From: a virus | Reading direction: 5' to 3' (one strand) | DNA length: 64,000 nt | Virus record (IMG/VR): IMGVR_UViG_3300030329_005371 | Location: 38,631-102,630 of that record | Shown: positions 9,933-62,757 of the stretch, in pieces | Numbering within the stretch: the first letter of the stretch is position 1 | How the letters are laid out: each line of letters opens with the position of its first letter | The notes under the pieces: model-generated | Database searches by the model: none | Seen by the model: the letters and a program-made list of their open reading frames with translations, nothing else | What the model was told of the DNA's origin: nothing | Translations under genes and position numbers: made by a program

Positions 9933-9933
9933 G

Positions 9934-13107: not shown

Positions 13108-13113
13108 GATAAC

Positions 13114-14891: not shown

Positions 14892-14892
14892 A

Positions 14893-19149: not shown

Positions 19150-19150
19150 T

Positions 19151-19870: not shown

Positions 19871-19871
19871 G

Positions 19872-22355: not shown

Positions 22356-22363
22356 GGAATAAA

Positions 22364-23233: not shown

Positions 23234-23242
23234 GGAGGAAAA

Positions 23243-35589: not shown

Positions 35590-35606
35590 AATAAGGAAAT
35601 TTGATA

Positions 35607-37397
35607 ATGCCCCAAGATAAAATTATCCCCATAAACTATACGAGTAGAGACTATATCACTATTCGAGAAGATTTGATGGAACTAGCAGAGAGATTCTATC
35701 CTGATAATTTTCAAGATTGGAGTGAGGGCTCTTTTGGCTCAATGATGATTGACGCAGTAGCATATGTTGGAGATCAGTTATCTTTCTATCTTGATTATAA
35801 TGTCAATGAGTCATTTCTGGACACGGCCTACGGATTAGGTAATATAATTCGCCATGGCCGAGCGTTAGGATATAAAGATCCCGGCCGCGCCTCTACGTAT
35901 GGCGAGCTAGCCTTTTATGTAGAAGTGCCAGCCTCTCCGTCAGGCCTAGGCCCTGATTCGCGTTATATTCCTGTTCTAAAGAAAGGAAGCCGATTTAGCT
36001 CTACTTCGGGACAGAACTTTCTTCTAACAGCAAATGTAGACTTCGCCAATCCCGCTAATCCCGTGGTGGTTTCTAAGGTGACAGACTCCACCGGCGCGCC
36101 CACGCACTATGCTTATAAAGCGTATGGAACAGTTGTTTCCGGACGCCTGGGAACTACCACAGTTACAGTGGGTAGTTTTCAAAAATTCCGAAGAGTACTT
36201 TTACCGATTCCGGACGTAGCTGAAATTATTTCGGTTACAGATTCTAGTGGCCAGCAATATTTTGAAGTAGAGAATCTCGCACAAGATATTGTCTATAGGG
36301 AAATAACAAACAAAAACTTTCAAAATGATAATGTCCCTTCTATCTTGAAGCCTCTGATCGTTAATCGTAAATTTGTATTAGTTAGAGAAAATATGGCTAC
36401 CTTTTTACAGTTTGGGAGCGGTGATGCGGCAGAGATCGACATAGTTGCGGAGCCTCAGCAGGTCGCGCTCGATATTTTCGGAAAAAACTATGTCTCTAGT
36501 ACTTCATTTGACCCCACTCGTCTTTCTAAGAATAGAAGTTATGGGCTTGTTCCTACGAATACTAAACTGACAGTAACTTATAGGGTGACAAATTCCGCTA
36601 ATTCGAATGCTGCGGTAGGAAGTATTACCCGAGTGTCGGATGCTAGTATGAGATTTGCCAATCTATCAACGTTAGCGCCAAGTACAATCACAAGCGTACG
36701 TAACTCTTTAGAATGCTCCAACGAATCTCCTATCGTGGGAGATATTACTTACGCTAGTACGACTGAAATTAAACAACGCATTTACGACACATTCCCCACG
36801 CAGAATCGCGCCGTAACACAAGCAGATTATGAAAATATTGCGTATAGGATGGCCCCTCAGTTTGGCTCTATTAAGCGCTGCTCTGTTCAAAAAGATACTG
36901 CTTCTCTTAAGCGAAACCTTAATATGTATGTTATTTCTGAAGACGTGTACGGCAAATTAATAAAAACTAATTCTACTATTAAAAATAATTTAAAAACTTG
37001 GCTAAACAATTATAGAATGATTAATGATACTGTCGATATTCAGGATGCTTATGTTATAAATCTTGGTTTAGATTTTTCTATTTCGGTCTTAAGTGCTGGC
37101 AACAAGGAAATGGCCATGGCTCAAGCCTTGGCAACTTTACGCAGTTATTTAACCAGAGGATACTATATTGGTGAACAGTTTTCAATTAGTCAAATATATT
37201 CACTATTAAAAAGTGTTCCGTCTGTTTTAGATGTGAAGGCTTTGAGAATTTTTGCCAAAACAGGCGCGCAATATTCTAATGTAGCCTTTTCGGTAAATCA
37301 AAATACTTCTCCGGATGGAAGCTATATAATTTGTCCAAAAAATGCTATTTTTGAGATTAAATATCCTCAAGTCGACATTAAAGGTAAGGCTAGATAA
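35607..37397 (+). CDS. Baseplate wedge protein, T4 gp6/baseplate J-like
   Basis: YTSRDY..IR, AYVGDQLSFYLD...NESFLDTA, LGY, QFGSG, QNRAVTQADY. Confidence 0.9.
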   Translation: MPQDKIIPINYTSRDYITIREDLMELAERFYPDNFQDWSEGSFGSMMIDAVAYVGDQLSFYLDYNVNESFLDTAYGLGNIIRHGRALGYKDPGRASTYGELAFYVEVPASPSGLGPDSRYIPVLKKGSRFSSTSGQNFLLTANVDFANPANPVVVSKVTDSTGAPTHYAYKAYGTVVSGRLGTTTVTVGSFQKFRRVLLPIPDVAEIISVTDSSGQQYFEVENLAQDIVYREITNKNFQNDNVPSILKPLIVNRKFVLVRENMATFLQFGSGDAAEIDIVAEPQQVALDIFGKNYVSSTSFDPTRLSKNRSYGLVPTNTKLTVTYRVTNSANSNAAVGSITRVSDASMRFANLSTLAPSTITSVRNSLECSNESPIVGDITYASTTEIKQRIYDTFPTQNRAVTQADYENIAYRMAPQFGSIKRCSVQKDTASLKRNLNMYVISEDVYGKLIKTNSTIKNNLKTWLNNYRMINDTVDIQDAYVINLGLDFSISVLSAGNKEMAMAQALATLRSYLTRGYYIGEQFSISQIYSLLKSVPSVLDVKALRIFAKTGAQYSNVAFSVNQNTSPDGSYIICPKNAIFEIKYPQVDIKGKAR

Positions 37398-39364
37398 TGC
37401 TTAGAAGATATTCGGCTAGCGCCGATAATACAATTGTGAATGCTTACCAGCCTAATTTGGTAACACGCGGTACCGGTGCTAATGCTGGTCGAGCAGACAT
37501 CCTAGAGACATTTTCTATCTACGGAAGACAGGCTACCGGCTCGCAAGAATTGTCTCGTATTCTTCTTAAATTTCCGGTAGCCAAGATAAACACAGATCGT
37601 ACAGCTGGAAAGATTCCTGATAGTGGTTCTGTGAGTTTTTATTTGCGGATGTTTAATGCGCCTAGTTCAAAAACTGTACCGCGAGATTATAAACTTGTAA
37701 TTCAAGCGCTTTCTTCTTCATGGCAGGAAGGAGATGGGTTAGACTTAGAGGGCTATAAAGATACAACTTATGATAAATATGGCTCTAACTGGATTGTAGC
37801 AAACGATACTTTGGCCAATGCTAGCGCAACTTTTGGGGGACTAGCGGCTTTAGTTTCTGATAATGGAACCGAGCTTACTCTTATTGACTATAATGGCGAC
37901 ACAGTTACACTTACAACGGACAGCAGTCTAGCTCCTACTGCTGGGACTGCCACCAAAATAGGCACTAACGGAATTAGTTCCAATGCACAAGCAACCCAGG
38001 CTTTACATGTGACTTTTGCCGCGGCAATTGCTGCCGGCAATCTTTCGATGACACTGACACCCACTACTTGGACTAGTGAAACGTCTATTACTTTAACTTA
38101 TAAATACCCAGGCCCCGCCGGCAATAGGGCCATTGTTGTGCCGGCGAATGTTACAACTCAAGGAGGCGCTTCTGGAGTAGATGGATATTTTACCGGAGGT
38201 ACCGGCCGCTGGTATTCAGTTGGCGGTGATTATGTCACTAAACGCAGGCCCGTAACTCAACATTTTAGCGCCGGTACTGAAAATTTAGAGGTTAATGTAA
38301 CACAATTTGTAGAGGATTGGATCAAAGGCGCCACTAGTTCTGTTGGCGATGGATATGTTAATTATGGCTTAGGAATCAGATTTTCTTCTTCTTATGAGGC
38401 TTCGTCCTCCGCGCGCGCCGTCCGAAAAGATAGCAATGTAATTTTTAATCCCGCCGGCGCAGTAAAATCTTATTATACTAAACGATTTTTTGGTCGCGGT
38501 TCCCAATATTTTTTCTTTAAGCCTATCATAGAAGCTCGTTGGAATTCGGCCAAAACAGATGATCGCGGCAATTTCTTCTTCAGCAGCTCGCGCGCGCCAG
38601 CTTCAGAAAACTTAAATACTCTTTATTTTTATAATGTCGTTCGAGGAAGATTAACGAACCTCCCAGGCATCGGCTCTTCAGGTAAATTAGTAGTTAGTTT
38701 GTTTTCAGGCTCTAAAGACAACACCGGCCCATCCGGATCGGGAGTGGCGCGCAACCCGCTAACCTTGTGCGCATCAACATACTTCGCTACAGCAAGTTAT
38801 GTATCGACAGGAATTTATTCTTGTAACGTTTGTTTGCCCTCCTCTTCAGTTAAAACGGTTTATGATGTATGGTTTTCAGGAAGTGACGATATTGGTAACC
38901 CCAATAAAGCTAAGCAATATTTTACTGGCTCCTTCCGGCCGATGTCTATAGATGGTGGAGAGTCTACTGCTACATCGCTGTACTATCTTTCACTAACCAA
39001 CCTTCAGCCAAAATATTTACGAAATGATACGGCGCGCCTTAATTTATTTGTAAGAAAGAAAGGCTGGAAACCTACGATCTATACAGTGGCAAACACCAAG
39101 ATTGAGACAGAAACAATCATTAGTGCTTCTTATAGAGTGTATAGACTACTAGATGGCTACCCTGCTGTTCCGTATGGAACGGGGAGTGAAAATCACACAG
39201 GCTTATCTTATGATGTATCAGGAAATTATTTTGATTTAGACATGACGTTGTTAGAGCCGGGATATGCCTATGGCTTGAAGTTTGCTTTTTATGATGAGAG
39301 AAATCTGTCGTGGAATGAACAACACGAGGTGTTTAAGTTTAGAGTAGAAGACTATGAGTATTAA
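37397..39364 (+). CDS. Virion structural protein (baseplate-associated)
   Basis: ADNTI, SRILLKF, WQEG.G, SNW, GGDY, NYGL, P.IEARW pattern, resembling DNRLRE-like structural domains; Ser/Thr-rich; contains an insert module. Confidence 0.65.
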   Translation: MLRRYSASADNTIVNAYQPNLVTRGTGANAGRADILETFSIYGRQATGSQELSRILLKFPVAKINTDRTAGKIPDSGSVSFYLRMFNAPSSKTVPRDYKLVIQALSSSWQEGDGLDLEGYKDTTYDKYGSNWIVANDTLANASATFGGLAALVSDNGTELTLIDYNGDTVTLTTDSSLAPTAGTATKIGTNGISSNAQATQALHVTFAAAIAAGNLSMTLTPTTWTSETSITLTYKYPGPAGNRAIVVPANVTTQGGASGVDGYFTGGTGRWYSVGGDYVTKRRPVTQHFSAGTENLEVNVTQFVEDWIKGATSSVGDGYVNYGLGIRFSSSYEASSSARAVRKDSNVIFNPAGAVKSYYTKRFFGRGSQYFFFKPIIEARWNSAKTDDRGNFFFSSSRAPASENLNTLYFYNVVRGRLTNLPGIGSSGKLVVSLFSGSKDNTGPSGSGVARNPLTLCASTYFATASYVSTGIYSCNVCLPSSSVKTVYDVWFSGSDDIGNPNKAKQYFTGSFRPMSIDGGESTATSLYYLSLTNLQPKYLRNDTARLNLFVRKKGWKPTIYTVANTKIETETIISASYRVYRLLDGYPAVPYGTGSENHTGLSYDVSGNYFDLDMTLLEPGYAYGLKFAFYDERNLSWNEQHEVFKFRVEDYEY

Positions 39365-42300
39365 AAAATTATTCGATTCCGCTAATCCAAGCATTATTTT
39401 CGAAGATTATAAAAATGAAAAAGAGATGTTTGAGTTTGTTGAGTCTCGCGACAATGCACGCCAGATCAACATTAAGAATGAAACATTTGTACCACACCTA
39501 GATTACTCTCAGCCAGTAAATTTTATTCGTTATGGTTCTGCGTATTATTTTTATCAGGGCGCCCTTAAGAAAATATCAGATTACTATCCTTATGATGGAT
39601 CCTCGGCCGAAAAAGTAAAGTTCTACAATAGTCTTTTCGAGGGTGAAAAATACGTTTTTGATAAGAGGTACCCCACCACTACAGGATATGTTATTATGTC
39701 TGTGGATGGTTGGGGCTCACGTTCTGGAGCGCAGGTTAACGGCTACGGTATGCCTGCTACTCCTGAATATATCACCTTCAAGGGCGGCCCTCTTACAGCA
39801 TCGGGCACTTCAATGGTTTCACGCGGCCCCGATCCGGATACCAATAAAGTAAATTATTCTAATATCTATGACGAAAACATATATGAAACCGCAGGGTTGC
39901 CTGATGATTATGGAAAAGGCACTCGACTTTCTAATTTGCGCTCAAATTTCGATGACGGAGTGACAGCGGAATTTTGGCTTAAAAAGACGAGCTTCGATCT
40001 TACAAAAACTGGTAAGGAAGTTGTCGCAGATATATGGAACAATTATTCGTTATCTACAGGAAAATATGGTCGGATAACTTTAGAATTGACAGGAGGTTTT
40101 TCCGGCAATACACCTTTCATGTTTACGGTTCAGTCGGGTACCACCTCGGTAGCCCTTCAGCGTATGCGAATTGGAAACAATATAACGCCGGCCTCTCTTA
40201 AGAATTGGGGGCACTATGCGTTTACTTTCCAAAATTCAGGTAGTAGTTTTGTGGTTAAACTCTATGAGAATGGAGTACTCAATGACATTAACATTTATAA
40301 TGGCAATATAAGTGAATTAAATTCTAAAGGGATGATGGGGCGCCTAGGCGGATTGATGCGGCCTCCCTCCGGATCTGCTATCGGAGCCGGCGCCGGAAAA
40401 CTAAGCGCTTCGCTAGATGAGTTTAGATTTTGGAAAGTTGCCCGAAATTCTCAACAAATTAGTCGTAATTGGTTCGCGCCAGTTAATGGCGGCACAAATA
40501 CAGATATTTCTAACACTACTTTGGGCGTCTATTATAAATTTAATGAAGGAATTGTAGGAAGCAGTTCAATTGATAGTATGGTTTTGGACTATTCTGGCCG
40601 ATTAAGTAATGGTGTTTGGACGGGCTATTCTGCCACTAGTCGAAATACAGGTTCGGCCATTGTATCAGCTAGTGCTGCGCGCACTGAAGCCGCCGATCCT
40701 ATTATCAGAGTAGAGCATCCTAAATTCATAGCGCTTAGTTCTTCGTTGCTGGCCACAGGCTCTTATTATGATTTGAATAACAACTCCTCGTTTATGAGTT
40801 ACGTGCCTAGTTGGATTATTGAAGAACACGAAGCCTTGGGTAATCCTAATATAAAGATTATTTCTCATATCTTAGGCTCTTATTTTGACAAGCTATATTT
40901 CTTAATCAAAGAAGTTCCTAAGATAAGAGAGTCTGATTACATCACTTCTTCGGTCGCTCCAGTTCCCTTTGCCAGACATCTGCCTCAATCTTTAGGCTTG
41001 TACACTCCTAATACTTTTATTGATGCGGATATTGTTGAAAAACTATTAAATCGAGACGCAACAAGATTCTTCGAAGGAGATTTAGTAGAAGCAAAAAATG
41101 AAATTTACGTAAATTTATATAATAATTTGGCTGAGATCTTTAAATCTAAAGGCACTGGCCGAGCTATTAGAAATGTATTAAGATGTTTTAATCTTGATGA
41201 TTCCTTATTACAATTCCGTCAATATTCCACTGGAGAGACCTATAGTTTAGCTAATAATTTACGCCAAAAACAGTATCAAAAGACATTTCTTAACAATGAT
41301 CATCGCAATAATCTGGCCGGTGTTGTATATCAGTGTACAGCCTCTTCTAATAGCGATAGTCGTGGTTATATTTCCGGAAGTTATGAAAGTTCGATAGCTG
41401 GCGCAGAGAACCCCTATGGGGCTACAATAGAAGCAGATATTATGTTTCCTACATATAATTTGCTTTCTAATACATTTCGTCGCCAACACGATCTTAGTAA
41501 AATGTCTCTGTTTGGCATGTACACGGCCAATACGGGAAGTGCCCGGGCCCTCGCCGGCGCCAACACAGCGTTCGTTTCTAGTTCAGATTATAGTAACTTT
41601 CAGGTATACGCCCAGCGCCCAACACCCCGCAGCAAAGATGTACAATTTATATTAAGTTCTTCTCGCTCGCCGTATCCGATCCCCTTGTTGACGAGCAGCG
41701 TGTTCTTTAATGTTTATGATAATAATTTATGGAATTTGTCGGTACGCCTACGACCCCAGGGGTATCCAATGGCCGCAGTTGTTAGCGGATCTATTGGATA
41801 TGGATATGATGTGGTGTTTCGTGGGACTAACTATATTCTAGACACCGAGTTGGAAAGCTTTGAAGTTTCAAGCAGCATTAGTCACGAAGCTGGTACTCGC
41901 TTTCTTCAATCAGCAAAAAGGCTTTATGTTGGTGCGCACCGCGATAATTTAACTGGTACTATTTCTCAATCGTGCGATGTGACCTTCTCTAGTGTCAAAT
42001 ATTGGACTAAATATTTAGATAATTATTCTTTAAGACAACACTCCAGAAATAGTCACAATAGTGGTATTTCCGGCTCGTATCGTAATATTTCTCCTCTTGA
42101 CCCTAACAACAAGAATAAGGATTTATTAAATTTAAATACATTAGCTCTTGAGTGGAATTTTACGGCTTTGTCCAAGAGCACCACTCATGGTAAATTCTTC
42201 GTAGAAGATTACAGCTCCGGGTCTGCCACCATGAGAAATAATTATGGTTGGCTTGGAAAAGTAAGCGGCTATCAGCATACTGGCCGCGGCTTTAGTTATG

Positions 42301-45300
42301 CGACCTCTTCCACTGACATAGCTTCAATTAAATCTCTTAATGTGTATGAGTTTATAGACCCAGAACAGGTGGTTTCTGACGAGATGATTAGAATTGTCTC
42401 CGGAGATGAAGAAGTATTCGATCTTACTCACACAGTACCCGACTATCTTTTCACGTTAGAGAAAAGCATGTATGGCGCTGTTTCAGCAGAGATGTTAAAC
42501 TTTTTTGCGGGCGTTATTGATTTTAATAGTTTGATTGGCGATCCGGTCAATCGCTATCGTGAGCGTTATAAAGATTTAGAAAAATTACGAGAAATTTTCT
42601 TTCGTAGGGTTACGAAAGTCACCGATGTAGAAAAGTTTTTAAATTATTATAAATGGTTTGATGATGCCATATCTATGATTATTCAACAGCTTGTTCCGGG
42701 ATCTTCTCCATATGTGGAAAATATTTTAAATATGATCGAGCCGCATGTGCTAGAGAGGTCGAAATACCAAACTAAGTTCCCGACATTAGAATTTAAAGAA
42801 CCAGAAATAGAATTTGCCCCCTTTAAGGGAATTTGGGAGAAAACGTATAGCTGGAAATTTGGCCACAGCCCCCTTCCGTCCAGCCCTCGCGACACTGAAG
42901 AGAATATTCTTTATTGGAAAAACCGGGCGCAAAGATGGAAGACTGAACTGAAAAAAGCAACTAATGGTCCACCAGATGCTATTGTAAATGAACAGCGCGA
43001 AAAAGTAAGAAAAGCGGTTGTAACGAATCCTCACGTTAGCAGTTCTATTCCCAAAGTCCGCACCCGCGGAGGCATGTCATATCAAGCGCCAAGGTATCCT
43101 CGTAGAAATTTCCAAAAGCCATATAGATTGGGAATACAAACTCCAGGCTCTGCTTCGGTATTATATGGAGGTGTAAACTTTGAGGCGTCTAAGAATATCC
43201 ACTTTACATATAATGCTTTGACCCCTGCAGGCCCAGTAAATACTGATAGCGGTGTTTTTGTTCCAGAAAATGTTTTGATGTCATTCATGAGTTCATTGAC
43301 AAAGATACCTCCATCTAAAGATCCTAAGCCAGCCTGGGTCAAAACTAAAAGATATTCTAAAGTTTTACATGGTCGCGATTATGAATCAGGCCTGGGCTAT
43401 AAAAATGTAAAGTCGTCCATTGCGTTTCCTTTTAATTTGTATGATAGCAGTGATGTAGTTAAAGCAGGTTATCAGGCACAGATTCGAAAAGTATTAAGCG
43501 GTGGCATCACCATTACCAACCTTCATAATGATGTGTATGGTCCTTATATTCTTGAAAGGCCCATGCAGGGCCCGTTTACAGAATATGCGGTTGGAGGCCA
43601 TCAATCAAGGCACATAACTATCAATAAAGGTGCGGACACTTGGAAAACCAGACCCGAAGCTTGGAAGCTTCTTTTAGCATGTTGTACAGATTTGTCCCGC
43701 AGTATTGAAGATTCTGGCGCTATTGGTTTGGTGGGAGCTGACTACCCGTATCCCGGATCCAACGGCGGCGCCGAAGGTGATATTCGCCCATATCCCCAGA
43801 CGGCTAGCCAAAAGGCGGTCTATTATCGAGACTTTGTGTCGAAGCGTCCGGTTAATATACGCAACATTCACCATACCACTGGTTCGACAATCTTAGGAAA
43901 TTATAACAATAATTATGACTTCTTAAATACGGTGGGCGCCTATTCTAATCCTAGACAGTTTGTGGAAAAACAGCCTCAGCTGCCCAATATTATTTTTGAG
44001 AACTCCGGATCTAATTTTGGTCGACTTGGTTCAACTCGCACACTGGTCGACCGCGGCCCTACTAGCGTTCGTAATCTTTTGAATATTCGCCGAAGCGAGC
44101 CTTTTAAAAATGTACGCTATAGTCATTTTAACTTTTTATCTTCTTCTAAGCTTCCAGCAAGAATTAACGGCAGAGGATATCCCGGCGAATATTCTGTAGG
44201 CTATTTGACCGGATCCAAGAACAAATCAGTTATACGCGGCCGATTTGCTGCACCCGGAGGTATTGAAATTGCCACTCCCGGCTATAATGATTTTAGATCT
44301 GATTCTTATTCGGTATATAACAGTGTCAATAATAGAAATCTGATGGTAAAAAGACCATTTCAGGCTTTCCCGCAGAATAAGTCTTTTATATCAGCTGAAA
44401 TTACTGGCGCAGGTCCAGCTGGTATTTCTGTCTTCGACATTCATGGTAAGGACTATGGACTTTACGCTCACCTGACAAGACATTCGGCTAAGTTTGGACG
44501 GTCATCAGTATGGATAACGGGCTCTCATACCGGCAGCGTTGAGCCTTTTCCAGGAGCGCTCGCTACGGGCGGCAGTCTAACAACTCCTGGCACTATTGCT
44601 AATGGTACTCAAATCACCATTACGGTGCCTGTATCCGCCGGCGGCGCCGGAAAGGCTGTTACGATTGAATTTACGACATCGGACTCTACTGGTGCTGGAG
44701 CTGCTGGCGCCAATAAGATTGGCATAGGCACCCCTGCTATATTTACCACATATAGGAATGCAGAATATGCGCGCGCACTAAGAGATGCGATTAACGGCGC
44801 CGAAAATAGTCTTGTAACATATGCTACGAGCGGTGAAGGTATTAAGGGAATAGGAGTAAAGGGAGTGAGCGCCTCTCCTAAAGGAGATTTATATGGATTT
44901 ACTAATGTTGCGGTAAGGGCGTTGTATGCGGGTACTGCCGGAAATAGTATCACTATGGCAAATGTGGCGGGAACTAGCCTTGTAACAGTGGGAACATTTA
45001 CTAGTGGCCAGAATAAGAAAAAGGGCCTCCTCACATACGGCGGACCCGGTAAGACTTACAACCAGCTTCCAAGTTTCCACAAAGTCAATAGAAATAATTT
45101 AACAGTACTTAAGCAATCGCACGCCGCGGCCGGCTTGGCTCAATACTCACCTAGTTCGGTATATGATAATTGGTATATAACTCACCAAATTCCTCGCTCC
45201 ACATTACAATATGCTTGGATTACGGCTTCGTGCCAATATCGTCGCGACGGTGCCTACGGTATGGTTAGCTCTGATTTCTTAACTAAAGACAGTACTGGAA

Positions 45301-48300
45301 AGTGGATCGACTCTTTGGATTTCGTTTCTGCTAGCGAGTTCGTATCATATATTAACGCCGCGCCGAGAGCGTTTGGTTGGGACTACTCGGGTGTTTTCGC
45401 CAACCGTCAAGTACAGAGAACTGATTTCGTAGGCTTAAATTTAAATACACTGGAAACTTGTAATACTGGTTCGGGTATTTTAGGAAAAATGATTTTGTCT
45501 GCCCTTCCTGGAGGGGAGGGCGGATTTCTTAATCATCCGGATTTAGCCTTCAGGAGCCTTAATAGGCACCCAGGCCAAATTGCTACTATAAATACGGCCG
45601 GCACAGCTAGTGCTTTAAATGCTATTCTTCTTAATCGCCAAAGTGTTTATGGATGGCCTACATGGCGCCAAATGCGCTGGGCAGATCATAAACTTCTGAG
45701 AACCTATAAGAAACATAATGCTGTTTATATGGAATCGATTACCGGCGCCGTAGCATCGACTACCAAGTTTATTATGCCTCCCGTATCTATGCGCGGCCGA
45801 CCACTTTATGTTTCTTTAGAGGTAGACGAGAATACACAGGTCTGGAAAGCTGATTATAGTAACAATTATGTCTATTTTAATAGATACGAGACAGACGATC
45901 AGTTCCCAGATTTTGGGCGAGATTACACTTCCACAACAGTGGGTGAACAGATTATTGATAACGCAGTCACTGAAGCTTTTGACAGTATCGATCTTAATTG
46001 GATTTTGTATACTGAGAATATCTTCCCTTCTCAGAGAAATGAATTTTTAAATCATTCTCGTAATAAAAAGATGTTCGATAATAGATTCTGGCGCGACAGT
46101 CAAAATGCGCGAGTAACACTAGGTACCACCATATCAAGTAGTCAAGATATTGTGCCGCTTCTCACTCAAAGTTGTTTTGTTTTGGACGCGCCGCTCGATT
46201 TCTTAACTCGTCGGATGGTGCCCCTTGTCTCTTATTCGCTCGCCTCGGGCCAACTCAGAGGACGCGAAGGCACCATTTTGCGGAATCGAAAGAGTCTCAT
46301 AGATCAAGCCACAGCTGGTGAGCTGCAGAACACATATTCTACTTATTTCACTAGCAGCAATATAGGACGCTTACGAGTTAGCAACTATCAAAAAGCCAAT
46401 GTTTTAACTCCTGGTCTTTTATATGCGCGCAAGCATACCATTTCTACACCCACCTCGGTTGTGTGCCCTGCTGGAATAGATATTCCCCAGTCTGGATCGG
46501 GCAAGATGCTTCCATTTGCTAGTACTAAGCAGATTCAAATCTTCGCCGGCGAGGCTCAATGGCAAGCTGGCTCTCAAGCTGGGTATATGTGGTATGATCT
46601 AGATGCGCCGCATAGAAATTACTTACAATTTATTCCCAAGCCGTCAAAACCATGGTTTAACAATTATGAAGAATTCAATTATTTATTAAACAAAGTTAGT
46701 AAAGCCAAAGAATTTGCGATTGTTCCAGAATATCGCATGAGCGTCCACATAGAAGATTATTCCCGTGCCGGCTGGTCTATGACAGATATCCAGAATAAAA
46801 AATATGATATGTTGGAATTTCCCGAAACAAGAGGCTGCGCAGAAACTCAACAGGCTAGCGAAGATGGATCTTTTGCTCCAGCTTGTCAGAATAGCCAGGA
46901 GACTTATTTTTACGTAGATTATTCGAATTCTGAGTTTCTACAAAATTATGGAGATCTTAAATGGGCAAGCGGCCTTGAGGCTAAACAAATTAAGATTGAA
47001 TGTAGCGCTTCAATTAGGTTTAATCCGTACAAAGGATTTTATCCAGTACAGAGAACAATTCAGCTTGCGCATAAGCTAAGAGAAGAATTAGGCCTTCAGA
47101 CAAGCTGGGATGCGGCAGGGGCCCCATATTATAATGATCCGCCTTGGTACATTGATGGTCTTGATAATAATTTTTCTGGCTCACTTACAAAGCCGTTATT
47201 TCAGCCTATGTTTGCGCCTGGAATTATGTTCAACACCATTAAGTCTGGCCTCGCCGTAGATTTTCCGGTAGTTGAAGATCCGCGCTTTGTACAGCGTACT
47301 CCATTTGGAGATTCTGCCGCCTTAAAAGAGAACAATTACGCCATTACTATTGATCCTACTACCATGAGGCTTCTAGGTATGCGTAGAAATGCGCTGTTTG
47401 ATAGAAGAATTCCTTTCGAAGCGATGATTAACCCCGATCTTGGTTTTATGGGATCGACAGCGCTTTATGTTGATCTGGATTCTCACCCTTCTTGTTCGAT
47501 TGACTTAACTAGTTCTGGTACTGGAGATCCTCTCACTGGGCGCCTTATTGACGCAGAGTGTGCCGAGACTAGTTATGGCTGGATGGCTGATAATTTCTTT
47601 GGCGAGGTTATGAATACATATTTGGCAGATGGTCAGCCTACACAGCTCAAGTCAGATGGTTGGCCGCGCGCAGGCCAGACTATCGAAGTAGGTACGTATA
47701 TGATGAGAATTAAATTACGCCGCAGTATGGAAGGAATAAAAAGCTATTCTAACGAACGTGGCTCAAAAGTATATTTAAATCCAGTTGGCACCTATGGTGG
47801 TCGTGGTCGTGGCCGCGGGCCCGGTGGAACTCCCTTTAATTTCTCGTCTCTTTCTCCATACGTACAAAACGGAGGTCGCAGAATCTTTAGTGGCACCCAG
47901 GGCAGTGGGCGCCCAGCAAACGCTAAAGGAAAAATGGGCTTTTCTACTAGCTCTATAGGATATCCTATCCCGCAAGATCCTTTTTCCTCGGCAAGCTCCT
48001 ATAGAGAAACGTTTACGATGTATAGTCGGCCTACTGCTTTCGGTCCTCCTTTGGCCGGCATGGGCGAGCAAAGCAAAACATCTGTGTCGAGATATATGAA
48101 TAATACTATTGTAGATAGCTTTTCTGGCCATAACCCTGCTTATACGCCCCCTTATTATGATGGCGAGTCGTGGTGTGATGTCGTATTTAGAGTGCCTGAG
48201 TCTATGAGCGATCATAAATATACCATGACAGATATTATAAATAATTGTAAATATAAGTATTGGCGTATTGATCCTGGTTATGCTACAGCTAGTTACCGTG

Positions 48301-49964: not shown

Positions 49965-49988
49965 TGGTGAATATTTCCCTTATATGGA

Positions 49989-49995
49989 TAGTTAT
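49989..49995 (+). promoter_or_regulatory. Putative late-promoter motif TAGTTAT
   Basis: 23 nt upstream of the ATG at 50012. Confidence 0.35.
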
Positions 49996-50011
49996 TGTTA
50001 GAGAATAAAAG

Positions 50012-53940: not shown

Positions 53941-53945
53941 GCACC

Positions 53946-53953
53946 TATTTATA
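53946..53953 (+). promoter_or_regulatory. Putative late-promoter motif TATTTATA
   Basis: 23 nt upstream of the ATG at 53969, ahead of an AAGGAG SD; exact reverse complement of the T4 late promoter TATAAATA. Confidence 0.45.
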
Positions 53954-53968
53954 TAAAGGAGAGTTAAA

Positions 53969-55647: not shown

Positions 55648-55648
55648 A

Positions 55649-58270: not shown

Positions 58271-58289
58271 GGGTAATTAGGGATATATT

Positions 58290-59306
58290 ATGGCTTTTTT
58301 AGATAACACTGGAACAATTAAAATAGATGCGGTTCTGACAGATGTCGGAAGAAAAAGAATGGCGCAGGGCCAGTTTATGATAACTAAGTTTGCACTAGGC
58401 GATGATGAATTGGATTATTCGTTTGTAGATACTTCGGATCTTACTGAAGAAAGTTCGTTCGCTTCTCTAAAGACGTTTTCTATGTTTGAGGCATTTGCCG
58501 AAAAGAACGCAGTCATCACCTATCAGCTTAGAGATTTTAGAAGTGATGATATATTGTATATCCCGCAGATTAAGATTAACGAAAAAATAAGCGAATCAGT
58601 AAAGAAGGACACATCTTCTAATTCTACATTTTATTATTTAGGTGTCAATGTGGAGACTACTAAGAAATTAAAGACGCTAATAGGTAAAAGATTTTATCTG
58701 GAAAATGAGTCATCATTGCTCAATAAATTAGTATTTGAAGCAGGAATTCACAGCGATACATCAACAATAGATCTTCCTCATACACAAAAAGCTCGCGAGC
58801 GTTATCTTTTAAACTACAATTTATATGATAAATACTTTATAATCAATTGTGATAACAGGTTTATCGACAAGTTATTAGTTGTCGACCCTAAAGATACGAA
58901 ATTTGAGAATGACGCATCAAACAATATGTTTTACAACTTTCAGACATTGCGACCAATTCCGCCGGTGTCGCTTAAAAAAATAACTAAATATTTTGATTCA
59001 TATATTGTGCCCGGGATCGACAATGAGATATTTCCCTATTCCGGCATTGATGATAACAAATATTCAGCGATTAATGGGCCTCGCAGTACTGTTGGGGTTT
59101 TCAATTTAAAAGTGATCGATGAGCTAACTGGCGAATCAACCACAACCAGAGACTTTAGATACTTAAAGTTTGGAGAAATCAACAAGACATTGTTTGGCGG
59201 TAGCGATAAGTTTGATTATATTGACACAGTTCTGCGCATTGAAGGAACCGCTAGCGGCGCCACCCTTCAGGTACCTATTAGAATTTTAAGATATGCAGGC
59301 ACTTAA
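58290..59306 (+). CDS. Virion structural protein, paralog A
   Basis: MAFLDN.G.I..DAVLTDVGR..M..G.F.ITKFALGDDE.DY; 338 aa. Confidence 0.75.
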   Translation: MAFLDNTGTIKIDAVLTDVGRKRMAQGQFMITKFALGDDELDYSFVDTSDLTEESSFASLKTFSMFEAFAEKNAVITYQLRDFRSDDILYIPQIKINEKISESVKKDTSSNSTFYYLGVNVETTKKLKTLIGKRFYLENESSLLNKLVFEAGIHSDTSTIDLPHTQKARERYLLNYNLYDKYFIINCDNRFIDKLLVVDPKDTKFENDASNNMFYNFQTLRPIPPVSLKKITKYFDSYIVPGIDNEIFPYSGIDDNKYSAINGPRSTVGVFNLKVIDELTGESTTTRDFRYLKFGEINKTLFGGSDKFDYIDTVLRIEGTASGATLQVPIRILRYAGT

Positions 59307-59330
59307 AACTAACTTTATTAAAATAATTAC

Positions 59331-59337
59331 TATTTAT
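59331..59337 (+). promoter_or_regulatory. Putative late-promoter motif TATTTAT
   Basis: 26 nt upstream of the ATG at 59357, ahead of a GAGG SD. Confidence 0.45.
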
Positions 59338-59356
59338 GTTAAGAGAGGAATAATAA

Positions 59357-60373
59357 ATGGCTTTTTTAGATAACTCAGGAGATATCATTCTTGATGCGGT
59401 GCTTACCGATGTAGGGCGCCAAAAGCTTTCAGATGGCAAGTTTGAGATTACTAAGTTTGGCTTAGGTGATGATGAAATTAATTACGGAACTTACGATCTC
59501 AATCACCCCTCTGGATCGGCATATTATGATTTAGAGATTATGCAGACGCCGGTATTAGAGGCCTGGACTGCTACTAATCAGAATATTAATTATGGATTGC
59601 TGACAAACACTAACTTAGAATTAGAATATTTGCCGGTATTGGTATGTAACGAGAAAGCAGATTGCTCAGTGTCACTCAGTAGGCGTAATAATCTTTTTTA
59701 TGTGGCCACCAATTCGGATACTTGGGCAACATTAAATGGAACTTATAGCGACAATCTTCTTTTGGCTAATTCGACATCTTTGACTCAGTATATTATTGTG
59801 GAGTCGGGCCTTGATACTTATGATGAGCCCGCAACTGCTGTAACACGCCGCGGCTTCTTAGAAGTTAATGATCTTATAGATACCATGTTCACAGTGAACG
59901 CAGATAGTCGATTTATTGTGGGAGTAGGCACTATTAAAAGCGGCCCCGGTGGCGGCACATTTGCGAATGTTGTTAGTGATAACTCTCCGAACTTTAGTAT
60001 AGCGATTGAGATAAATACCTCTATTGGCGATTCAACCGAATTGGAGGGTTTCGAGAGGTTTCGCTCTAAAGGCCTTGCGAACAGGGTTTTCGATCCTACT
60101 TCGGGAGATGGAGATATCTATTCAAGCCTTAAGGGGCCGCGCGGTAGTATTTGTGCTTTAAATGTTAGTATTAAAAGTAGCCTGACGAGCACCAGCCAAA
60201 CCGACAGACTTTTTCAAGAGCACGGCTCTGTGAATGTGACCCCTACGGCTGCGGGAGTGCCGTCCGGAACTGCGACTACCTATGACTTTTTAGATACAAT
60301 CCTCTACGTACAGGGAATGTTTAGTGGTGCCACGCTACAAATTCCCCTTAGACTCATAAGAAAGAATTCATAA
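59357..60373 (+). CDS. Virion structural protein, paralog B
   Basis: MAFLDNSGDIILDAVLTDVGRQKLSDGKFEITKFGLGDDEINY; 338 aa; shares GPR and SGATLQ.P.R with paralog A. Confidence 0.75.
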   Translation: MAFLDNSGDIILDAVLTDVGRQKLSDGKFEITKFGLGDDEINYGTYDLNHPSGSAYYDLEIMQTPVLEAWTATNQNINYGLLTNTNLELEYLPVLVCNEKADCSVSLSRRNNLFYVATNSDTWATLNGTYSDNLLLANSTSLTQYIIVESGLDTYDEPATAVTRRGFLEVNDLIDTMFTVNADSRFIVGVGTIKSGPGGGTFANVVSDNSPNFSIAIEINTSIGDSTELEGFERFRSKGLANRVFDPTSGDGDIYSSLKGPRGSICALNVSIKSSLTSTSQTDRLFQEHGSVNVTPTAAGVPSGTATTYDFLDTILYVQGMFSGATLQIPLRLIRKNS

Positions 60374-60388
60374 ACTGGAGATTATTTA

Positions 60389-61528
60389 ATGGCAGCACAA
60401 AATTTTGTAAACCTAAACAGCGATGACGATATTACAACAACTAGAACGTTGTTGCATGAGGCCATCCCGCTGACAGGAACTATCTATAAGTACCAAACGA
60501 GTTCGTACGGCGATAACAATATTAAAAATTATATTCATGGCATGTTTCAGTCTGTTTATGATTATCCGTATTTGAGTTCTTCGGCTAACCATATTTTTGA
60601 CTTAACGGCATGTTATGCGGCTACTTCAAATTGCTCATCTTCAACATCAGTTCAAAACGCCAAGAAGATTAATATGTACACTGAGTTTGCTCAGCTGTTG
60701 CTTGGCTATAGCGGCTCTTTAACAGATCCCCGTCGAGATGTTAGATACTTCGAGAATGATCTTACGCTCGATGGTAGCAATAAAATGCGTGAAGTTTTTA
60801 TAGTTAATTTTTCTCGCCTATTGACCAAGGATCAAGTCAAGAAGGGGAGCTTTAGTATGACTATTGGAACTGGCTCCTGGAAAAATCCCTTCAAAGATAA
60901 TCGCCTCAATATCACAGTTACAGACGCGTCCGCATCCGCCGATGGATCTGGCATTGCCACTACTTTGGGCGGCGATATGGCAGTCCTATTTGCCACGTCC
61001 AGCAATGGATTTCTTCGAAATGGAACAGATTATTCTACTTTAGCGGCCGGCGTGGTGTTTTATCAAGCGGGTATTGCGATTCTTACTGCTTCTATATTTT
61101 CGGGGTCCGTTGGTAGAGGTAAGGCCGGCCCGACAGCAGGGCCGAGTGGTGCCTTCTACCGGGCGCCATATGGACAAAGAAATAGAAATGTCCAACAAAC
61201 TCTTTCGAGTTCTGCTATTAGCGCTGCTTGTGATGCTGTGCGGCATAGAATAGGAAATATTGCCTTTAATAATACGACTGAGATTAACTCTAAGATTTAT
61301 TTCTGTCGTGTTCCGCACAATAAATTTAACTATAGCGCTAATCCTACTTATTTGTCGGGAAGCAAGATTAAGGTGAAGAATGTAGCATCCGACTCGCCAG
61401 TCGCTTATATTACAACAGTTGGACTCTACAACGATCAACAGGAACTCATGGCTGTCGCTAAGCTTTCCGAACCTATTAGGAAGGATCCCACTAACGATCT
61501 TACAATTAGAGTTCGTTTGGATTACTAA
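60389..61528 (+). CDS. Baseplate/tail-collar-like structural protein
   Basis: C-terminal FNYSANPT...YITTVGLYND..ELMAVAKLSEPIRK....IRVRLDY, similar to tail-collar/wedge C-termini. Confidence 0.65.
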   Translation: MAAQNFVNLNSDDDITTTRTLLHEAIPLTGTIYKYQTSSYGDNNIKNYIHGMFQSVYDYPYLSSSANHIFDLTACYAATSNCSSSTSVQNAKKINMYTEFAQLLLGYSGSLTDPRRDVRYFENDLTLDGSNKMREVFIVNFSRLLTKDQVKKGSFSMTIGTGSWKNPFKDNRLNITVTDASASADGSGIATTLGGDMAVLFATSSNGFLRNGTDYSTLAAGVVFYQAGIAILTASIFSGSVGRGKAGPTAGPSGAFYRAPYGQRNRNVQQTLSSSAISAACDAVRHRIGNIAFNNTTEINSKIYFCRVPHNKFNYSANPTYLSGSKIKVKNVASDSPVAYITTVGLYNDQQELMAVAKLSEPIRKDPTNDLTIRVRLDY

Positions 61529-61530
61529 AA

Positions 61531-62757
61531 ATGTCTTTGAAGAAGTTTGATGAAAACGATGTTTTCATTAATACCATGAAGGCATATCCTCATAATGAGT
61601 TTGTCGTCTTTAATTCAAAGATATATTGGAATAGTGTTCCGGCTCAATCCGGCGCCCGAAACAATCAGGTGCGAAATGTTCCGTCCGGATATGTGAGTCT
61701 CTATGAATACAATATTGATCGCCCTAAGTTATCGACCGGCCGCTCTATTGAAACTGGAAGTATTTTAGACACTGGGCGGATTTATCCATGGATTTCTAAG
61801 GATACCGCCGGCGGAAGCTTTAAGACTGTCTCTACTGAGACCTATCAAAACGAATTTCAGTGGGGCGATGTGCTGACTGGCTCCTACCCCCTGTCTGCTT
61901 CTATAACGCGAGAATACATAACGCGCCCGTATTATTCTACGGCATCTTATAATAAGCACTATATGTCGCTTAGAAATAGATTAAATTTTTACGGACTTAA
62001 GAGTCAGCACTATAATGTTACATCTGCTTTTGGAAACAAAGATCGTTCAAAGATTAACCTAGTTTCAATCCCTAGCATTTTTTATGGGTCTCAGATCAAG
62101 CCTGGGAGCGTTTCCCTTAAGTGGTATTTTACAGGCTCCCTTATTGGCGAACTTAGAGATACACGCCAGAATGGTGAATTGATTCAGGTAGGCCCTCGAT
62201 CAAGCCTAGGGAGCGGTTCTGTAGCGGGCGTTGTTCTTTATAACGAAGGGTTTGTTCTCTTAACTGGCTCTTGGGCGCTCAATACTGAAACAATTCGACT
62301 CACCACGGCTTCGTTTTCCATCGCACCGCAATGGTTACATTACGGCGCCGGCGCAAATGACGGAATTTCTACCAGTACCGCCGGCGCCACGTATGCTAGT
62401 GCTTCATTTTCTCTTTCCTTTAAGGGTACCACAGAAACACAAGTGGTTACCATGCTGGCTAAAGCAAAGCGCGGAGAAGTAAATTATTCAAATAATCCCA
62501 CATTTCTAAAATACGGACAAACAAGAACTTACGCCTCTTCGTCACAGATATTTGAAGAACCTACAGACGTGGAAATTAAAAATTGTGTGAGTTCTTCGTT
62601 TAATGATTATGAGGTGCCTTTTAAAAGACAAGTGTATATCTCGCGCGTTGGTATTTATGATGAGAATAAAAATTTGATAGGCATGGCTACTCTAGCAAAT
62701 CCTGTTTTGAAAGAATCGGGCCGAGATCTAGCATTTAAAATAAAAGTAGATATCTAG
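61531..62757 (+). CDS. Baseplate/tail-collar-like structural protein (paralog of 60389)
   Basis: IKPGS, G.V.Y..G...LT, NYSNNPT...YISRVGIYDE..NLIGMATLANPVLK....FKIKVDI. Confidence 0.65.
   Translation: MSLKKFDENDVFINTMKAYPHNEFVVFNSKIYWNSVPAQSGARNNQVRNVPSGYVSLYEYNIDRPKLSTGRSIETGSILDTGRIYPWISKDTAGGSFKTVSTETYQNEFQWGDVLTGSYPLSASITREYITRPYYSTASYNKHYMSLRNRLNFYGLKSQHYNVTSAFGNKDRSKINLVSIPSIFYGSQIKPGSVSLKWYFTGSLIGELRDTRQNGELIQVGPRSSLGSGSVAGVVLYNEGFVLLTGSWALNTETIRLTTASFSIAPQWLHYGAGANDGISTSTAGATYASASFSLSFKGTTETQVVTMLAKAKRGEVNYSNNPTFLKYGQTRTYASSSQIFEEPTDVEIKNCVSSSFNDYEVPFKRQVYISRVGIYDENKNLIGMATLANPVLKESGRDLAFKIKVDI

What the first reader, a model, noticed from the sequence alone, without database searches (positions are those of the whole stretch)
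37397..62757. [S/T]-[G/A/S]-S tripeptide enriched only in a subset of structural proteins: candidate O-glycosylation sequon
Manual counts of SGS/TGS/SAS/TAS/SSS/TSS: about 16 in the 655-aa protein, 45 or more in the 3536-aa protein, about 11 in 60389 (379 aa) and about 11 in 61531 (408 aa). Rough composition-based expectation is 3-4 times lower. The motif is nearly absent from the glycan enzymes and from the 2168-aa protein. It is dispersed (FSGS, FTGS, LTGS, VSAS, ATAS), not in low-complexity tracts. Inference: a recurring acceptor motif on exposed loops recognised by an initiating glycosyltransferase, perhaps one of the two leading GT4s.
Basis: partly seen in the sequence, partly recalled or inferred. 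Interest (0 to 1): 0.8.

Follow-up and report, generated by a model that had tools for sequence, protein, structure and literature searches.

The report
Conserved Ser/Thr motif on phage tail proteins
Four tail-end proteins of an abundant, uncultured marine phage carry about four times too many copies of the short motif [Ser/Thr]-[Gly/Ala/Ser]-Ser, a pattern kept across thousands of relatives and travelling with a pair of phage sugar-transferases, so it is a strong but still unproven candidate for a sugar-attachment signal on the virus particle.

Summary
[ST][GAS]S occurs 16, 48, 11 and 11 times in the 655-, 3536-, 379- and 408-aa proteins: 86 in all, against 23 expected (z about 14). It survives shuffling within 10-residue windows.

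- **Specific:** TGS and SGS are the top two of all 8000 tripeptides in these four proteins. Position 3 is Ser only; Thr is not enriched. The codons are diverse, so the motif acts at protein level.
- **Restricted:** other structural proteins (18 seen, 18 expected), the glycan enzymes (8 vs 7.6) and 26 T4 structural proteins (29 vs 33) show nothing.
- **Conserved:** hundreds of metagenomic homologs keep the enrichment. So do the same positional proteins of the cultured phages Mel-JY01 (strong) and immuto (moderate).
- **Not needed for the fold:** some full-length homologs have 0-2 motifs, sites turn over, and the two paralogs share only 3 of about 10 frequent sites.
- **Enzyme link:** two adjacent GT4 glycosyltransferases are core genes of the clade. 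The second is catalytically degenerate in RM378 (no motif) and has no detectable adjacent copy in LR756508 (weak motif).

Best reading, about 50%: a phage-encoded O-glycosylation (Ser/Thr modification) sequon on exposed turns of baseplate and fibre proteins. No chemistry was tested. A lineage-specific structural turn motif remains a serious rival. The scan's other first-reader notes on this same stretch raised the same idea independently.

The parts
37397..39364 (+). 655-aa protein directly after the gp6-like baseplate wedge gene. It carries 16 [ST][GAS]S motifs. The AF2 model suggests tandem Ig/FN3-like beta-sandwiches.
   Evidence: 16 motifs vs 3.9 expected, z 6.3. 120 homologs average 14.6 vs 3.6, with fixed sites such as SSS at residue 396 in 121 of 121 sequences. 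AF2 pLDDT 60.8; Foldseek hits to Ig-like tandem domains at E 3e-5 to 1e-3 with low TM.
39354..49964 (+). 3536-aa giant tail/baseplate protein with a ConA-like (Laminin_G_3) domain at residues 192-370. It carries 48 motifs spread irregularly along its length.
   Evidence: 48 vs 14.7, z 9.1. Pfam PF13385 3e-8. Orthologs: G001 45 vs 14.4, Mel-JY01 1336 aa 18 vs 5.5, immuto 1265 aa 10 vs 4.3.
60389..61528 (+). 379-aa protein of a very large phage-only family with no Pfam, PHROG or PDB match. It carries 11 motifs.
   Evidence: 11 vs 2.0, z 6.5. More than 7800 homologs. The best 120 average 9.8 vs 2.3, at fixed columns. There are motif-free full-length homologs. No fold match.
61531..62757 (+). 408-aa distant paralog (24% identity) of the 379-aa protein. 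It carries 11 motifs, mostly at positions not shared with its paralog.
   Evidence: 11 vs 2.45, z 5.7. Paralogy: blastp 6e-10. The adjacent paralog is enriched in almost all related loci where it is present. Only 3 of 9-10 frequent motif columns coincide between the two families.
2483..3769 (+). GT4 glycosyltransferase #1, a core gene of the clade and a candidate member of the protein-glycosylating pair.
   Evidence: PF00534 1.5e-15, EX7E at 295-303. Found in 15 of 18 related records and 5 of 5 complete ones, at 51-72% identity. Homologs in immuto, Mel-JY01, RM378 and LR756508.
3718..5016 (+). GT4 glycosyltransferase #2 (probable true start near 3766). It is the best candidate for the enzyme tied to the motif.
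   Evidence: PF00534 8e-8, EX7E at 296-304. Found in 15 of 18 records and 5 of 5 complete ones. Intact orthologs in immuto and Mel-JY01. The RM378 syntenic copy has lost EX7E, and no copy was detected next to GT4#1 or elsewhere in LR756508. The Atlas holds the sequence from residue 17.
5013..24091 (+). Glycan synthesis and decoration island. It holds a GT2, a GT15-like enzyme, a GT1_2-like enzyme, DegT aminotransferase, GFO oxidoreductase, two UDP-sugar dehydrogenases, two epimerases/dehydratases, an NAD-synthase-like protein, FkbM and SAM methyltransferases, and two sulfotransferases. It is largely not conserved in the relative G001.
   Evidence: Pfam. Only two sugar enzymes of this stretch (a UDP-sugar dehydrogenase and an epimerase) have homologs in G001.
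35224..37397 (+). gp25-like and gp6-like baseplate wedge genes. They place the enriched proteins in the baseplate/tail module and are not themselves enriched.
   Evidence: PF04965 8e-13; phrog_261 2e-20; phrog_6 1e-22. Motif counts 0 and 1.

Best explanation
[ST]-[GAS]-S, usually preceded by two hydrophobic residues at the end of a beta-strand, is read here as a recognition signal (sequon) for a post-translational modification of Ser/Thr. The most likely modification is O-glycosylation, carried out in the host cytoplasm by the phage's own soluble enzymes.

The two adjacent, conserved GT4 glycosyltransferases would start the glycan on exposed turns of folded or folding baseplate and fibre proteins. 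The second GT4 is the stronger candidate. The downstream island of sugar-synthesis, methyl- and sulfo-transferase genes differs between related phages and would build and decorate a strain-specific glycan. The result would be a sugar coat on the distal, host-facing end of the tail.

**Shown:**
- the motif, its precision and its restriction to a fixed subset of virion proteins;
- its conservation and site turnover across the clade;
- its dispensability for the fold;
- the co-inheritance of the GT4 pair.

**Inferred:**
- that the motif is modified at all;
- that the modification is a sugar;
- which hydroxyl is the acceptor (position 1 accepts S or T as typical acceptors do; position 3 is strictly Ser);
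- which enzyme reads it.
For: 1. **Real and precise motif.** 86 vs 23, z 14. It survives 10-aa local shuffles. TGS and SGS rank first and second of 8000 tripeptides. Codons are diverse.

2. **Only a fixed subset of proteins.** The same positional set is enriched in the complete relative G001, in most of about 240 related loci, in Mel-JY01 and in immuto. Neighbouring structural proteins with similar S/T/G content are not enriched. Nor are 26 T4 structural proteins, baseplate and fibres included (29 vs 32.7).

3. **Substitutions respect the motif classes.** At one conserved site the counts are T72/S48, then A53/S45/G21, then S116.

4. **Not required for the fold.** Full-length homologs at 35-45% identity have 0-2 motifs. 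At motif columns, motif-lacking sequences carry small, polar or charged residues, with hydrophobic residues at only 6-11% against 33% background. Position -1 stays hydrophobic. This points to exposed turns.

5. **Turnover.** There are 7 core, 17 intermediate and 95 rare motif columns. Enrichment is 2.5x even outside the core sites. The paralogs share only 3 of 9-10 frequent sites.

6. **Enzymes.**
   - Both GT4s occur in 5 of 5 complete relatives.
   - They sit in a syntenic PD-(D/E)XK - GT4 - GT4 arrangement in immuto.
   - Both retain EX7E.
   - GT4#2 is intact in the motif-rich phages. It is degenerate in RM378, which has no motif. It was not detected in LR756508, which has a weak motif.
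   - None of the family searches run on the island (Pfam on all of its ORFs, NCBIfam on ten) matched a flippase, a polymerase or a lipid-carrier transferase. That fits a soluble cytoplasmic pathway, though ten island ORFs gave no Pfam match at all.
Against: - No chemical evidence of any modification exists.
- Every relative whose genome could be searched has at least the first GT4, so there is no clean negative control.
- The GT4#2 correlation rests on about five lineages and was noticed after the fact.
- RM378 keeps an intact GT4#1 yet shows no enrichment, so GT4#1 alone does not predict the motif.
- The genomic context of the motif-free metagenomic homologs could not be retrieved.
- S>A>>T at position 3 and G/A/S at position 2 also fit a steric small-residue requirement.
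- Hydrophobic flanks are unusual for known bacterial O-glycosylation sites.
- The glycan island could instead serve DNA modification or alteration of host surface polysaccharide.
- The GT4s match only generic GT4 models, with no protein-glycosyltransferase family.
Confidence: 0.5

Rival explanations
1. This is a lineage-specific structural or assembly motif that is never modified. A hydroxyl residue, a small residue and Ser at the exit of a beta-strand would form a particular tight turn or cap (ST-turn-like), or an inter-subunit contact. That element would be used repeatedly in the proteins that build one sub-assembly of the baseplate and fibres.
For: - Many sites are fixed across hundreds of homologs.
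- Position -1 is hydrophobic with or without the motif.
- 10 of 27 motifs in the two AF2 models start within 0-3 residues after a predicted strand end, against about 5 expected by chance.
- Position 2 tolerates only small residues, and position 3 is replaced by Ala far more often than by Thr.
- All enriched proteins belong to one tail module.
Against: - A general turn motif should appear in other beta-rich proteins. It does not appear in the neighbouring structural proteins, in T4 baseplate and fibres, or in RM378.
- Homologs fold without it.
- Sites turn over and are enriched outside the core positions.
- The paralogs place most sites differently.
- Unrelated folds (Ig-like sandwiches, an unknown alpha/beta fold, a giant multidomain protein) share the same tripeptide.
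Confidence: 0.27
2. This is a recognition signal for something other than glycosylation. Options are another Ser/Thr modification (phosphorylation, sulfation, acylation, phospho-sugar or phosphocholine-type addition), a docking site for a phage assembly chaperone, or small anion-binding 'nests' that contact host surface polymers.
For: The same statistical and evolutionary evidence as the main reading applies, because none of it says what recognises the motif. The island encodes two sulfotransferases and many methyltransferases.
Against: Pfam Sulfotransfer_2 family members are annotated as carbohydrate sulfotransferases (own knowledge). No protein kinase or acyltransferase was found in the window. 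The conserved neighbours are glycosyltransferases. A chaperone site would not need 48 copies in one protein.
Confidence: 0.18
3. This is a chance or compositional artefact of Ser/Thr/Gly-rich proteins, picked out post hoc.
For: The four proteins are S/T/G-rich at 9-12% Ser.
Against: - z is 14 globally and 13 within 10-aa windows.
- Equally S/T/G-rich neighbours such as 59357-60373 have 1 motif against 1.5 expected.
- The unbiased tripeptide ranking recovers the motif.
- It is reproduced in hundreds of independent homologs.
Confidence: 0.01

Closest known systems
Virion glycosylation of mycobacteriophages (Freeman et al. 2023, as summarised in PMC12619734; the primary paper is not held)
   Same: Phage-encoded glycosyltransferases, and virion proteins as the proposed substrate. 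In the mycobacteriophage work the glycan is read as a shield on the particle surface.
   Different: There the glycans sit on C-terminal tails of the capsid and tail-tube subunits. Here the candidate sites are a dispersed internal tripeptide on baseplate and fibre proteins, with up to 48 per protein. The island is far larger and includes sulfo- and methyl-transferases. The hosts are probably marine Bacteroidota or cyanobacteria rather than actinobacteria. Nothing has been shown chemically here.
Chlorovirus PBCV-1 major capsid protein Vp54 glycosylation (own knowledge)
   Same: A virus-encoded, cytoplasmic, ER-independent glycosylation machinery with its own sugar-decorating enzymes and a non-canonical sequon. 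PDB B736L, a chlorovirus GT4, is among the weak sequence hits of GT4#1 (E 1.7e-7).
   Different: That system is N-linked to Asn on the capsid protein of a eukaryotic virus. Here the motif has no Asn and lies on tail proteins of a bacteriophage.
GtfA/GtfB O-GlcNAcylation of serine-rich repeat adhesins, and SdgA/SdgB (own knowledge; NCBIfam models)
   Same: Cytoplasmic GT4 enzymes, acting as a pair, that put sugars on Ser in S-A-S / S-x-S contexts.
   Different: Both phage GT4s keep EX7E, whereas GtfB is a non-catalytic partner by my own recollection. The only matches to the Ser-adhesin O-glycosyltransferase models that appeared, SdgA and SdgB, score 16-18 bits against 800-bit cut-offs. The substrates here are not low-complexity repeats, and there is no accessory Sec system.
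Bacteroidota general O-glycosylation sequon D-[ST]-[ALIVMT] (own knowledge)
   Same: A three-residue O-glycosylation sequon on many proteins in a likely host phylum.
   Different: The sequence is different. That system is periplasmic and lipid-carrier dependent, whereas tailed-phage particles assemble in the cytoplasm.
ST-turns and beta-turn capping motifs (own knowledge)
   Same: A hydroxyl residue followed by small residues at a strand exit or turn.
   Different: Such motifs are universal and weakly sequence-specific. This one is confined to a few proteins of one phage clade and is dispensable in homologs.

Membership tests
GT4 glycosyltransferases (the two leading enzymes) | Match to Pfam Glycos_transf_1 (PF00534) above the gathering score | tested here: met
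   GT4#1 scores 57.6 bits and GT4#2 32.4 bits, against a cut-off of 26.4.
GT4 glycosyltransferases (the two leading enzymes) | EX7E motif in the C-terminal Rossmann domain | tested here: met
   EGFGLSALE at 295-303 and EGFGLPIFE at 296-304. The motif is conserved in G001, immuto and Mel-JY01 orthologs and lost in the RM378 GT4#2-like ORF.
GtfA/GtfB or SdgA/SdgB-type Ser-adhesin O-glycosyltransferases | Match to the curated family models | tested here: not met
   In NCBIfam, the only matches to Ser-adhesin O-glycosyltransferase models were SdgA at 18.1 bits and SdgB at 16.0 bits, against cut-offs of 800. The best hit is BshA-like at 53.6 bits against 273.7.
GtfA/GtfB or SdgA/SdgB-type Ser-adhesin O-glycosyltransferases | Substrate is a long low-complexity Ser-rich repeat region | tested here: not met
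   The motifs are dispersed with irregular spacing and survive local shuffling.
Mycobacteriophage-type virion glycosylation | Phage-encoded glycosyltransferases in a genome whose virion proteins are the substrate | tested here: inconclusive
   The GTs are present and core, but the substrate is not shown.
Mycobacteriophage-type virion glycosylation | Glycans on C-terminal extensions of capsid and tail-tube subunits | tested here: not met
   Candidate sites are internal and lie on baseplate and fibre-module proteins. No capsid or tube protein was identified among the enriched ORFs.
Mycobacteriophage-type virion glycosylation | Glycan detected on virion proteins | not testable with these tools
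   This needs glycoprotein staining or mass spectrometry of virions.
Bacteroidota general O-glycosylation | Sequon D-[ST]-[ALIVMT] | tested here: not met
   Charged residues at position -1 are 2% against 19% background, and position 2 is G/A/S only.
Generic structural turn motif (ST-turn-like) | Present broadly in beta-rich proteins regardless of lineage | tested here: not met
   No enrichment in other structural proteins of the same phage, in T4 structural proteins or in RM378.
Generic structural turn motif (ST-turn-like) | Required for the fold at homologous positions | tested here: not met
   Full-length homologs have 0-2 motifs. The paralogs share 3 of 9-10 frequent sites.

The most novel reading that the evidence does not exclude
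An abundant clade of ~160-200-kb aquatic myophages would coat the host-facing end of its tail with O-linked glycans. Known members are the marine lineage, Flavobacterium phage immuto and Microcystis phage Mel-JY01. The glycans would be attached at a simple sequon, [ST]-[GAS]-S after a hydrophobic strand end, read by a phage-encoded GT4 (most likely the second of a conserved pair). A hypervariable island of sugar, methyl- and sulfo-transferase genes would then give each strain a different glycan, making it a phage counterpart of O-antigen diversity.
Probability: 0.4. Interest if true: 0.85.

Novelty: new variant of a known kind. Interest (0 to 1): 0.72.

Why it matters
Glycosylated phage particles are so far documented mainly for mycobacteriophages, and no sequon is known for any phage.

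If this motif is a sequon, glycosylated tails would be common in one of the most frequently sampled uncultured marine phage groups. The 379-aa family alone has more than 7800 homologs, many from Tara and other ocean metagenomes. That would bear on:
- host recognition and adsorption;
- resistance to proteases and grazers;
- stickiness to marine gels;

A defined three-residue signal plus a soluble enzyme pair would also be a compact tool for cytoplasmic glyco-engineering.

The claim is directly testable because two cultured phages, immuto and Mel-JY01, carry both the motif and the enzymes. If instead the motif is purely structural, it is still an unusual case: a clade- and module-specific tripeptide under strong selection in unrelated folds.

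Tried and rejected
- **DNA-level word, methylation site or codon artefact:** rejected. There are 60 or more different 9-mers and all Ser codon families are used.
- **Local low complexity:** rejected by shuffles within 10- and 20-aa windows.
- **Shared ancestry of the four proteins:** only the 379/408 pair is related.
- **Periodic fibre repeat:** spacing is irregular.
- **Fold identification of the 379-aa protein:** failed. Foldseek best E is 0.5, VIA-align Z is at most 3.3, and a profile search against PDB gives E of at least 0.18. The ESM Atlas returns only viral hypothetical proteins.
- **Fold of the 655-aa protein:** only generic Ig/FN3-like tandem sandwiches.
- **Genomic context for motif-free homologs (P0340, P0381, P0334 and others):**
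  - Single-protein scans of IMG/VR found nothing.
  - Alignment-based scans of IMG/VR and of the metagenome collection returned only motif-rich marine relatives.
- **Strict "GT4#2 absent from RM378":** first suggested by tblastn, then corrected by HMMER. RM378 has a syntenic, divergent copy with a degenerate EX7E.
- **Literature searches:** no report of this motif or of glycosylated virions in this clade. The Freeman 2023 paper is not held.
- **Moraphages (PMC12619734):** another large aquatic phage lineage with core glycosyltransferases. I did not establish any relation to this clade.
Full report
**Setting**

The window is bases 38631-102630 of a 102.6-kb linear IMG/VR viral contig that CheckV rates 54% complete. 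Complete relatives are 190-203 kb, one with terminal repeats.

Almost all genes lie on the + strand. In order they are:
- a PhoH-like gene, then a PD-(D/E)XK nuclease;
- two adjacent GT4 glycosyltransferases;
- a ~19-kb block of glycan genes: a GT2, DegT aminotransferase, GFO oxidoreductase, a GT15-like enzyme, a Glyco_trans_1_2-like enzyme, two UDP-sugar dehydrogenases, two epimerases/dehydratases, an NAD-synthase-like protein, three FkbM and several SAM methyltransferases, and two sulfotransferases;
- a structural module with a gp25-like and a gp6-like baseplate wedge protein.

The 655-aa and 3536-aa proteins follow those two wedge proteins. The 379- and 408-aa proteins lie about 10 kb further on. 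By position relative to gp25/gp6, and with a gp13-like adaptor further downstream in the relative G001, the enriched proteins belong to the baseplate-periphery/fibre part of a contractile tail. This placement is an inference from gene order, not from fold matches.

| Protein | Observed | Expected | z |
|---|---|---|---|
| 655 aa | 16 | 3.9 | 6.3 |
| 3536 aa | 48 | 14.7 | 9.1 |
| 379 aa | 11 | 2.0 | 6.5 |
| 408 aa | 11 | 2.45 | 5.7 |

Pooled, 86 motifs stand against 23 expected (z 14). The excess is unchanged when residues are shuffled only within 20- or 10-residue windows (z 12-13), so it is not a by-product of Ser/Gly-rich patches.

- Of all 8000 tripeptides, TGS and SGS rank first and second, and SSS, TAS and SAS are in the top eleven.
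- Only S/T are enriched before [GAS]S, only G/A/S between, and only S at the end. Thr at position 3 is at expectation, 17 vs 17.
- The codons are diverse.
- The context extends outward. Hydrophobic residues are favoured at -2 (Y/F/P), -1 (L/F/A/I/V) and +1, and charged residues at -1 fall from 19% to 2%.

Controls show nothing:
- other structural proteins, 18 vs 18;
- the upstream enzymes, 8 vs 7.6;
- the 2168-aa protein, 1 vs 2.6;
- the other 38 kb of the contig.

**It is a property of protein families, not of this one genome**

- The 379-aa protein has more than 7800 homologs in metagenomes, many from Tara Oceans. The best 120 carry 6-14 motifs each, mean 9.8 against 2.3 expected.
- The 655-aa family gives 14.6 against 3.6.
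- Many sites sit in fixed alignment columns, and the substitutions there stay inside the motif classes. One site reads T72/S48, then A53/S45/G21, then S116.
- About 240 related loci came from IMG/VR and from metagenomes. In most of them the 379 homolog is enriched, and so is its adjacent paralog wherever it lies within the retrieved stretch. Flanking genes, checked across the first dozen loci, are not enriched.
- A genome-wide scan of the complete relative G001 (169 ORFs) flags the same positional set. It also flags three more proteins: a 373-aa ortholog of window ORF 50012, a 256-aa protein with 16 motifs, and a gp13-like adaptor.
- Two cultured phages show the pattern in the same gene positions. 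Microcystis phage Mel-JY01 shows it strongly (18 vs 5.5, 9 vs 2.5, 9 vs 2.2, 11 vs 1.9). Flavobacterium phage immuto shows it moderately (7 vs 1.3, 10 vs 4.3, 5 vs 1.7, 7 vs 2.2).
- The huge uncultured phage LR756508 shows at most a weak trend. Rhodothermus phage RM378 shows none.
- T4, used as an outgroup control, has 29 motifs against 32.7 expected over 26 structural proteins, including all baseplate and fibre proteins.

**It is not needed for the fold, and sites move**

- Among representatives at 35-50% identity, several full-length homologs have 0-2 motifs. At the columns where others carry the motif they have sequences such as VIDSKV, VLKTDI or YLQNSR.
- Over 188 family members, motif-lacking sequences at motif columns use small, polar or charged residues. 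Hydrophobic residues make up only 6-11% there, against 33% background. Position -1 stays hydrophobic either way. That is the signature of an exposed turn anchored by a buried strand end.
- The two AF2 models are only moderate (pLDDT 62.7 and 60.8). In them, 10 of 27 motifs begin within three residues after a predicted strand, against about 5 expected by chance.
- Motif starts use 119 different columns: 7 core, 17 intermediate and 95 rare. Outside the core sites the motif is still 2.5-fold enriched.
- The 379 and 408 families are paralogs (24% identity), yet they share only 3 of their 9-10 frequent motif columns.

Selection therefore seems to act on having the motif, not only on particular structural positions.

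**The enzymes**

- Both leading GT4s are generic GT4 by family models, and both keep the EX7E motif.
- Both are core genes. Each occurs in 15 of 18 related records and in all 5 complete ones. Identities are 51-72% for GT4#1 and 44-58% for GT4#2, as high as for the tail proteins themselves.
- Most of the rest of the island has no counterpart in G001. Immuto has the same PD-(D/E)XK - GT - GT start followed by a different sugar set.
- In G001, GT4#2 is fused to a GT2-like C-terminal extension, judged by a characteristic N-terminal GT2 sequence pattern. G005 also has an extended open frame of 709 aa.
- Among cultured or complete relatives, GT4#1 homologs exist in immuto, Mel-JY01, RM378 and LR756508.
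- GT4#2 is intact in immuto and Mel-JY01. RM378 has only a divergent syntenic copy in which GEGFGLPIFE has become GESWDYLLHN. No copy was detected in LR756508, either next to its GT4#1 or anywhere else in the record.

An intact GT4#2 thus tracks motif enrichment across the five lineages I could examine. This is suggestive only: the sample is small, the pattern was noticed post hoc, and lineages are not independent of overall divergence.

In Mel-JY01, GT4#1 is split into two ORFs that correspond to its two Rossmann domains.

**What I think it is**

The simplest account that covers all of this is a sequon for a Ser/Thr modification, written on exposed turns of distal tail proteins and read by a phage enzyme. 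The account has to explain precision, restriction to a stable subset of virion proteins, class-preserving substitutions, dispensability, turnover, independent placement in paralogs, absence in T4, and co-inheritance with soluble glycosyltransferases. Given the neighbours, O-glycosylation is the most likely chemistry. I put this at about 0.5.

Position 1 accepts Ser or Thr, as acceptor residues usually do. Position 3 is strictly Ser, occasionally Ala and rarely Thr. I cannot say which is the acceptor. Whether the two hydroxyls and the two GT4s correspond to each other is pure speculation.

The main rival, at about 0.27, is an unmodified structural or assembly motif peculiar to this tail sub-assembly. 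The fixed core sites, the small-residue preferences and the strand-end position fit it. The restriction to one clade, the turnover and the motif-free homologs do not.

A different modification or binding function is possible, at about 0.18. Chance is excluded.

**Limits**

- No chemistry was tested.
- No relative entirely lacking GTs could be examined.
- No model coordinates were available.
- The enriched proteins have no identified folds beyond Ig-like sandwiches in the 655-aa protein.

**Compared with what is known**

The nearest documented case is mycobacteriophage virion glycosylation, with glycans on C-terminal tails of the capsid and tube proteins (cited via PMC12619734). The nearest in logic is the chlorovirus capsid glycosylation with a virus-specific sequon (own knowledge). 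This would be a new variant: an internal three-residue O-sequon on baseplate and fibre proteins of aquatic myophages, with a hypervariable decorating island. I found no paper describing it.

Noticed in passing
L173:6188-6958 (G001:C1:126188-126958), outside the window's counterpart: A 256-aa protein of the complete relative G001 carries 16 [ST][GAS]S motifs against 3.4 expected, many as TGS/SGS followed by L-x-[IV]. It has no Pfam or PHROG match. It may be the most densely marked virion protein of the clade. Its ortholog would lie beyond the end of this contig.
   Followed up: partly
L173:16814-18085 (G001:C1:136814-138085): A 423-aa protein resembling the gp13-type head-tail adaptor (phrog_211, 4.5e-13) has 5 motifs, 3 of them in its first 40 residues. 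The motif is therefore not strictly limited to the baseplate module.
   Followed up: partly
window 5013-24091 versus G001:C1:45751-64072: Only the GT4 pair and two sugar enzymes (a UDP-sugar dehydrogenase and an epimerase) are shared between this phage's glycan island and that of a relative whose tail proteins are about 50% identical. The island looks hypervariable, like an O-antigen locus.
   Followed up: partly
G001:C1:43808-45751 and G005:C1:145865-147109: In G001, GT4#2 is fused to a C-terminal GT2-like domain, giving an open frame of about 650 aa. G005 has an extended open frame of 709 aa that I did not inspect further.
   Followed up: partly
L261 (RM378 10616-11893) and L263 (Mel-JY01 83441-84932): RM378 keeps a syntenic GT4#2-like ORF whose EX7E is degenerate. 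In Mel-JY01, GT4#1 is split into two ORFs of 190 and 302 aa that match its N- and C-terminal domains.
   Followed up: yes
window 58290-59306, 59357-60373 and 50012-51052: The two 338-aa proteins are paralogs (34% identity, E 1e-50). Their first ~68 residues also resemble the N-terminus of the 346-aa protein at 50012 (32% identity). This may be a shared attachment module on different distal domains, as in fibre or receptor-binding cassettes. None of the three is motif-enriched here.
   Followed up: no
window 60389-61528: The 379-aa family is very large (more than 7800 hits; 2360 cluster representatives at E<=1e-3). It is phage-only and has no Pfam or PHROG family and no detectable PDB fold match. 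Some members are 480-590 aa with insertions.
   Followed up: partly
window 24854-25570: This 238-aa protein of unknown function is the second most conserved protein between this phage and G001 (82% identity, after the PhoH-like protein at 89%). It also has a homolog in LR756508 (34%). It sits between the glycan island and the structural module.
   Followed up: no
window 3718-3769: The listed start of GT4#2 overlaps GT4#1 by 52 bases. The ESM Atlas holds the protein from residue 17 on, and homolog alignments start around residue 17-21, so the true start is probably near 3766.
   Followed up: partly
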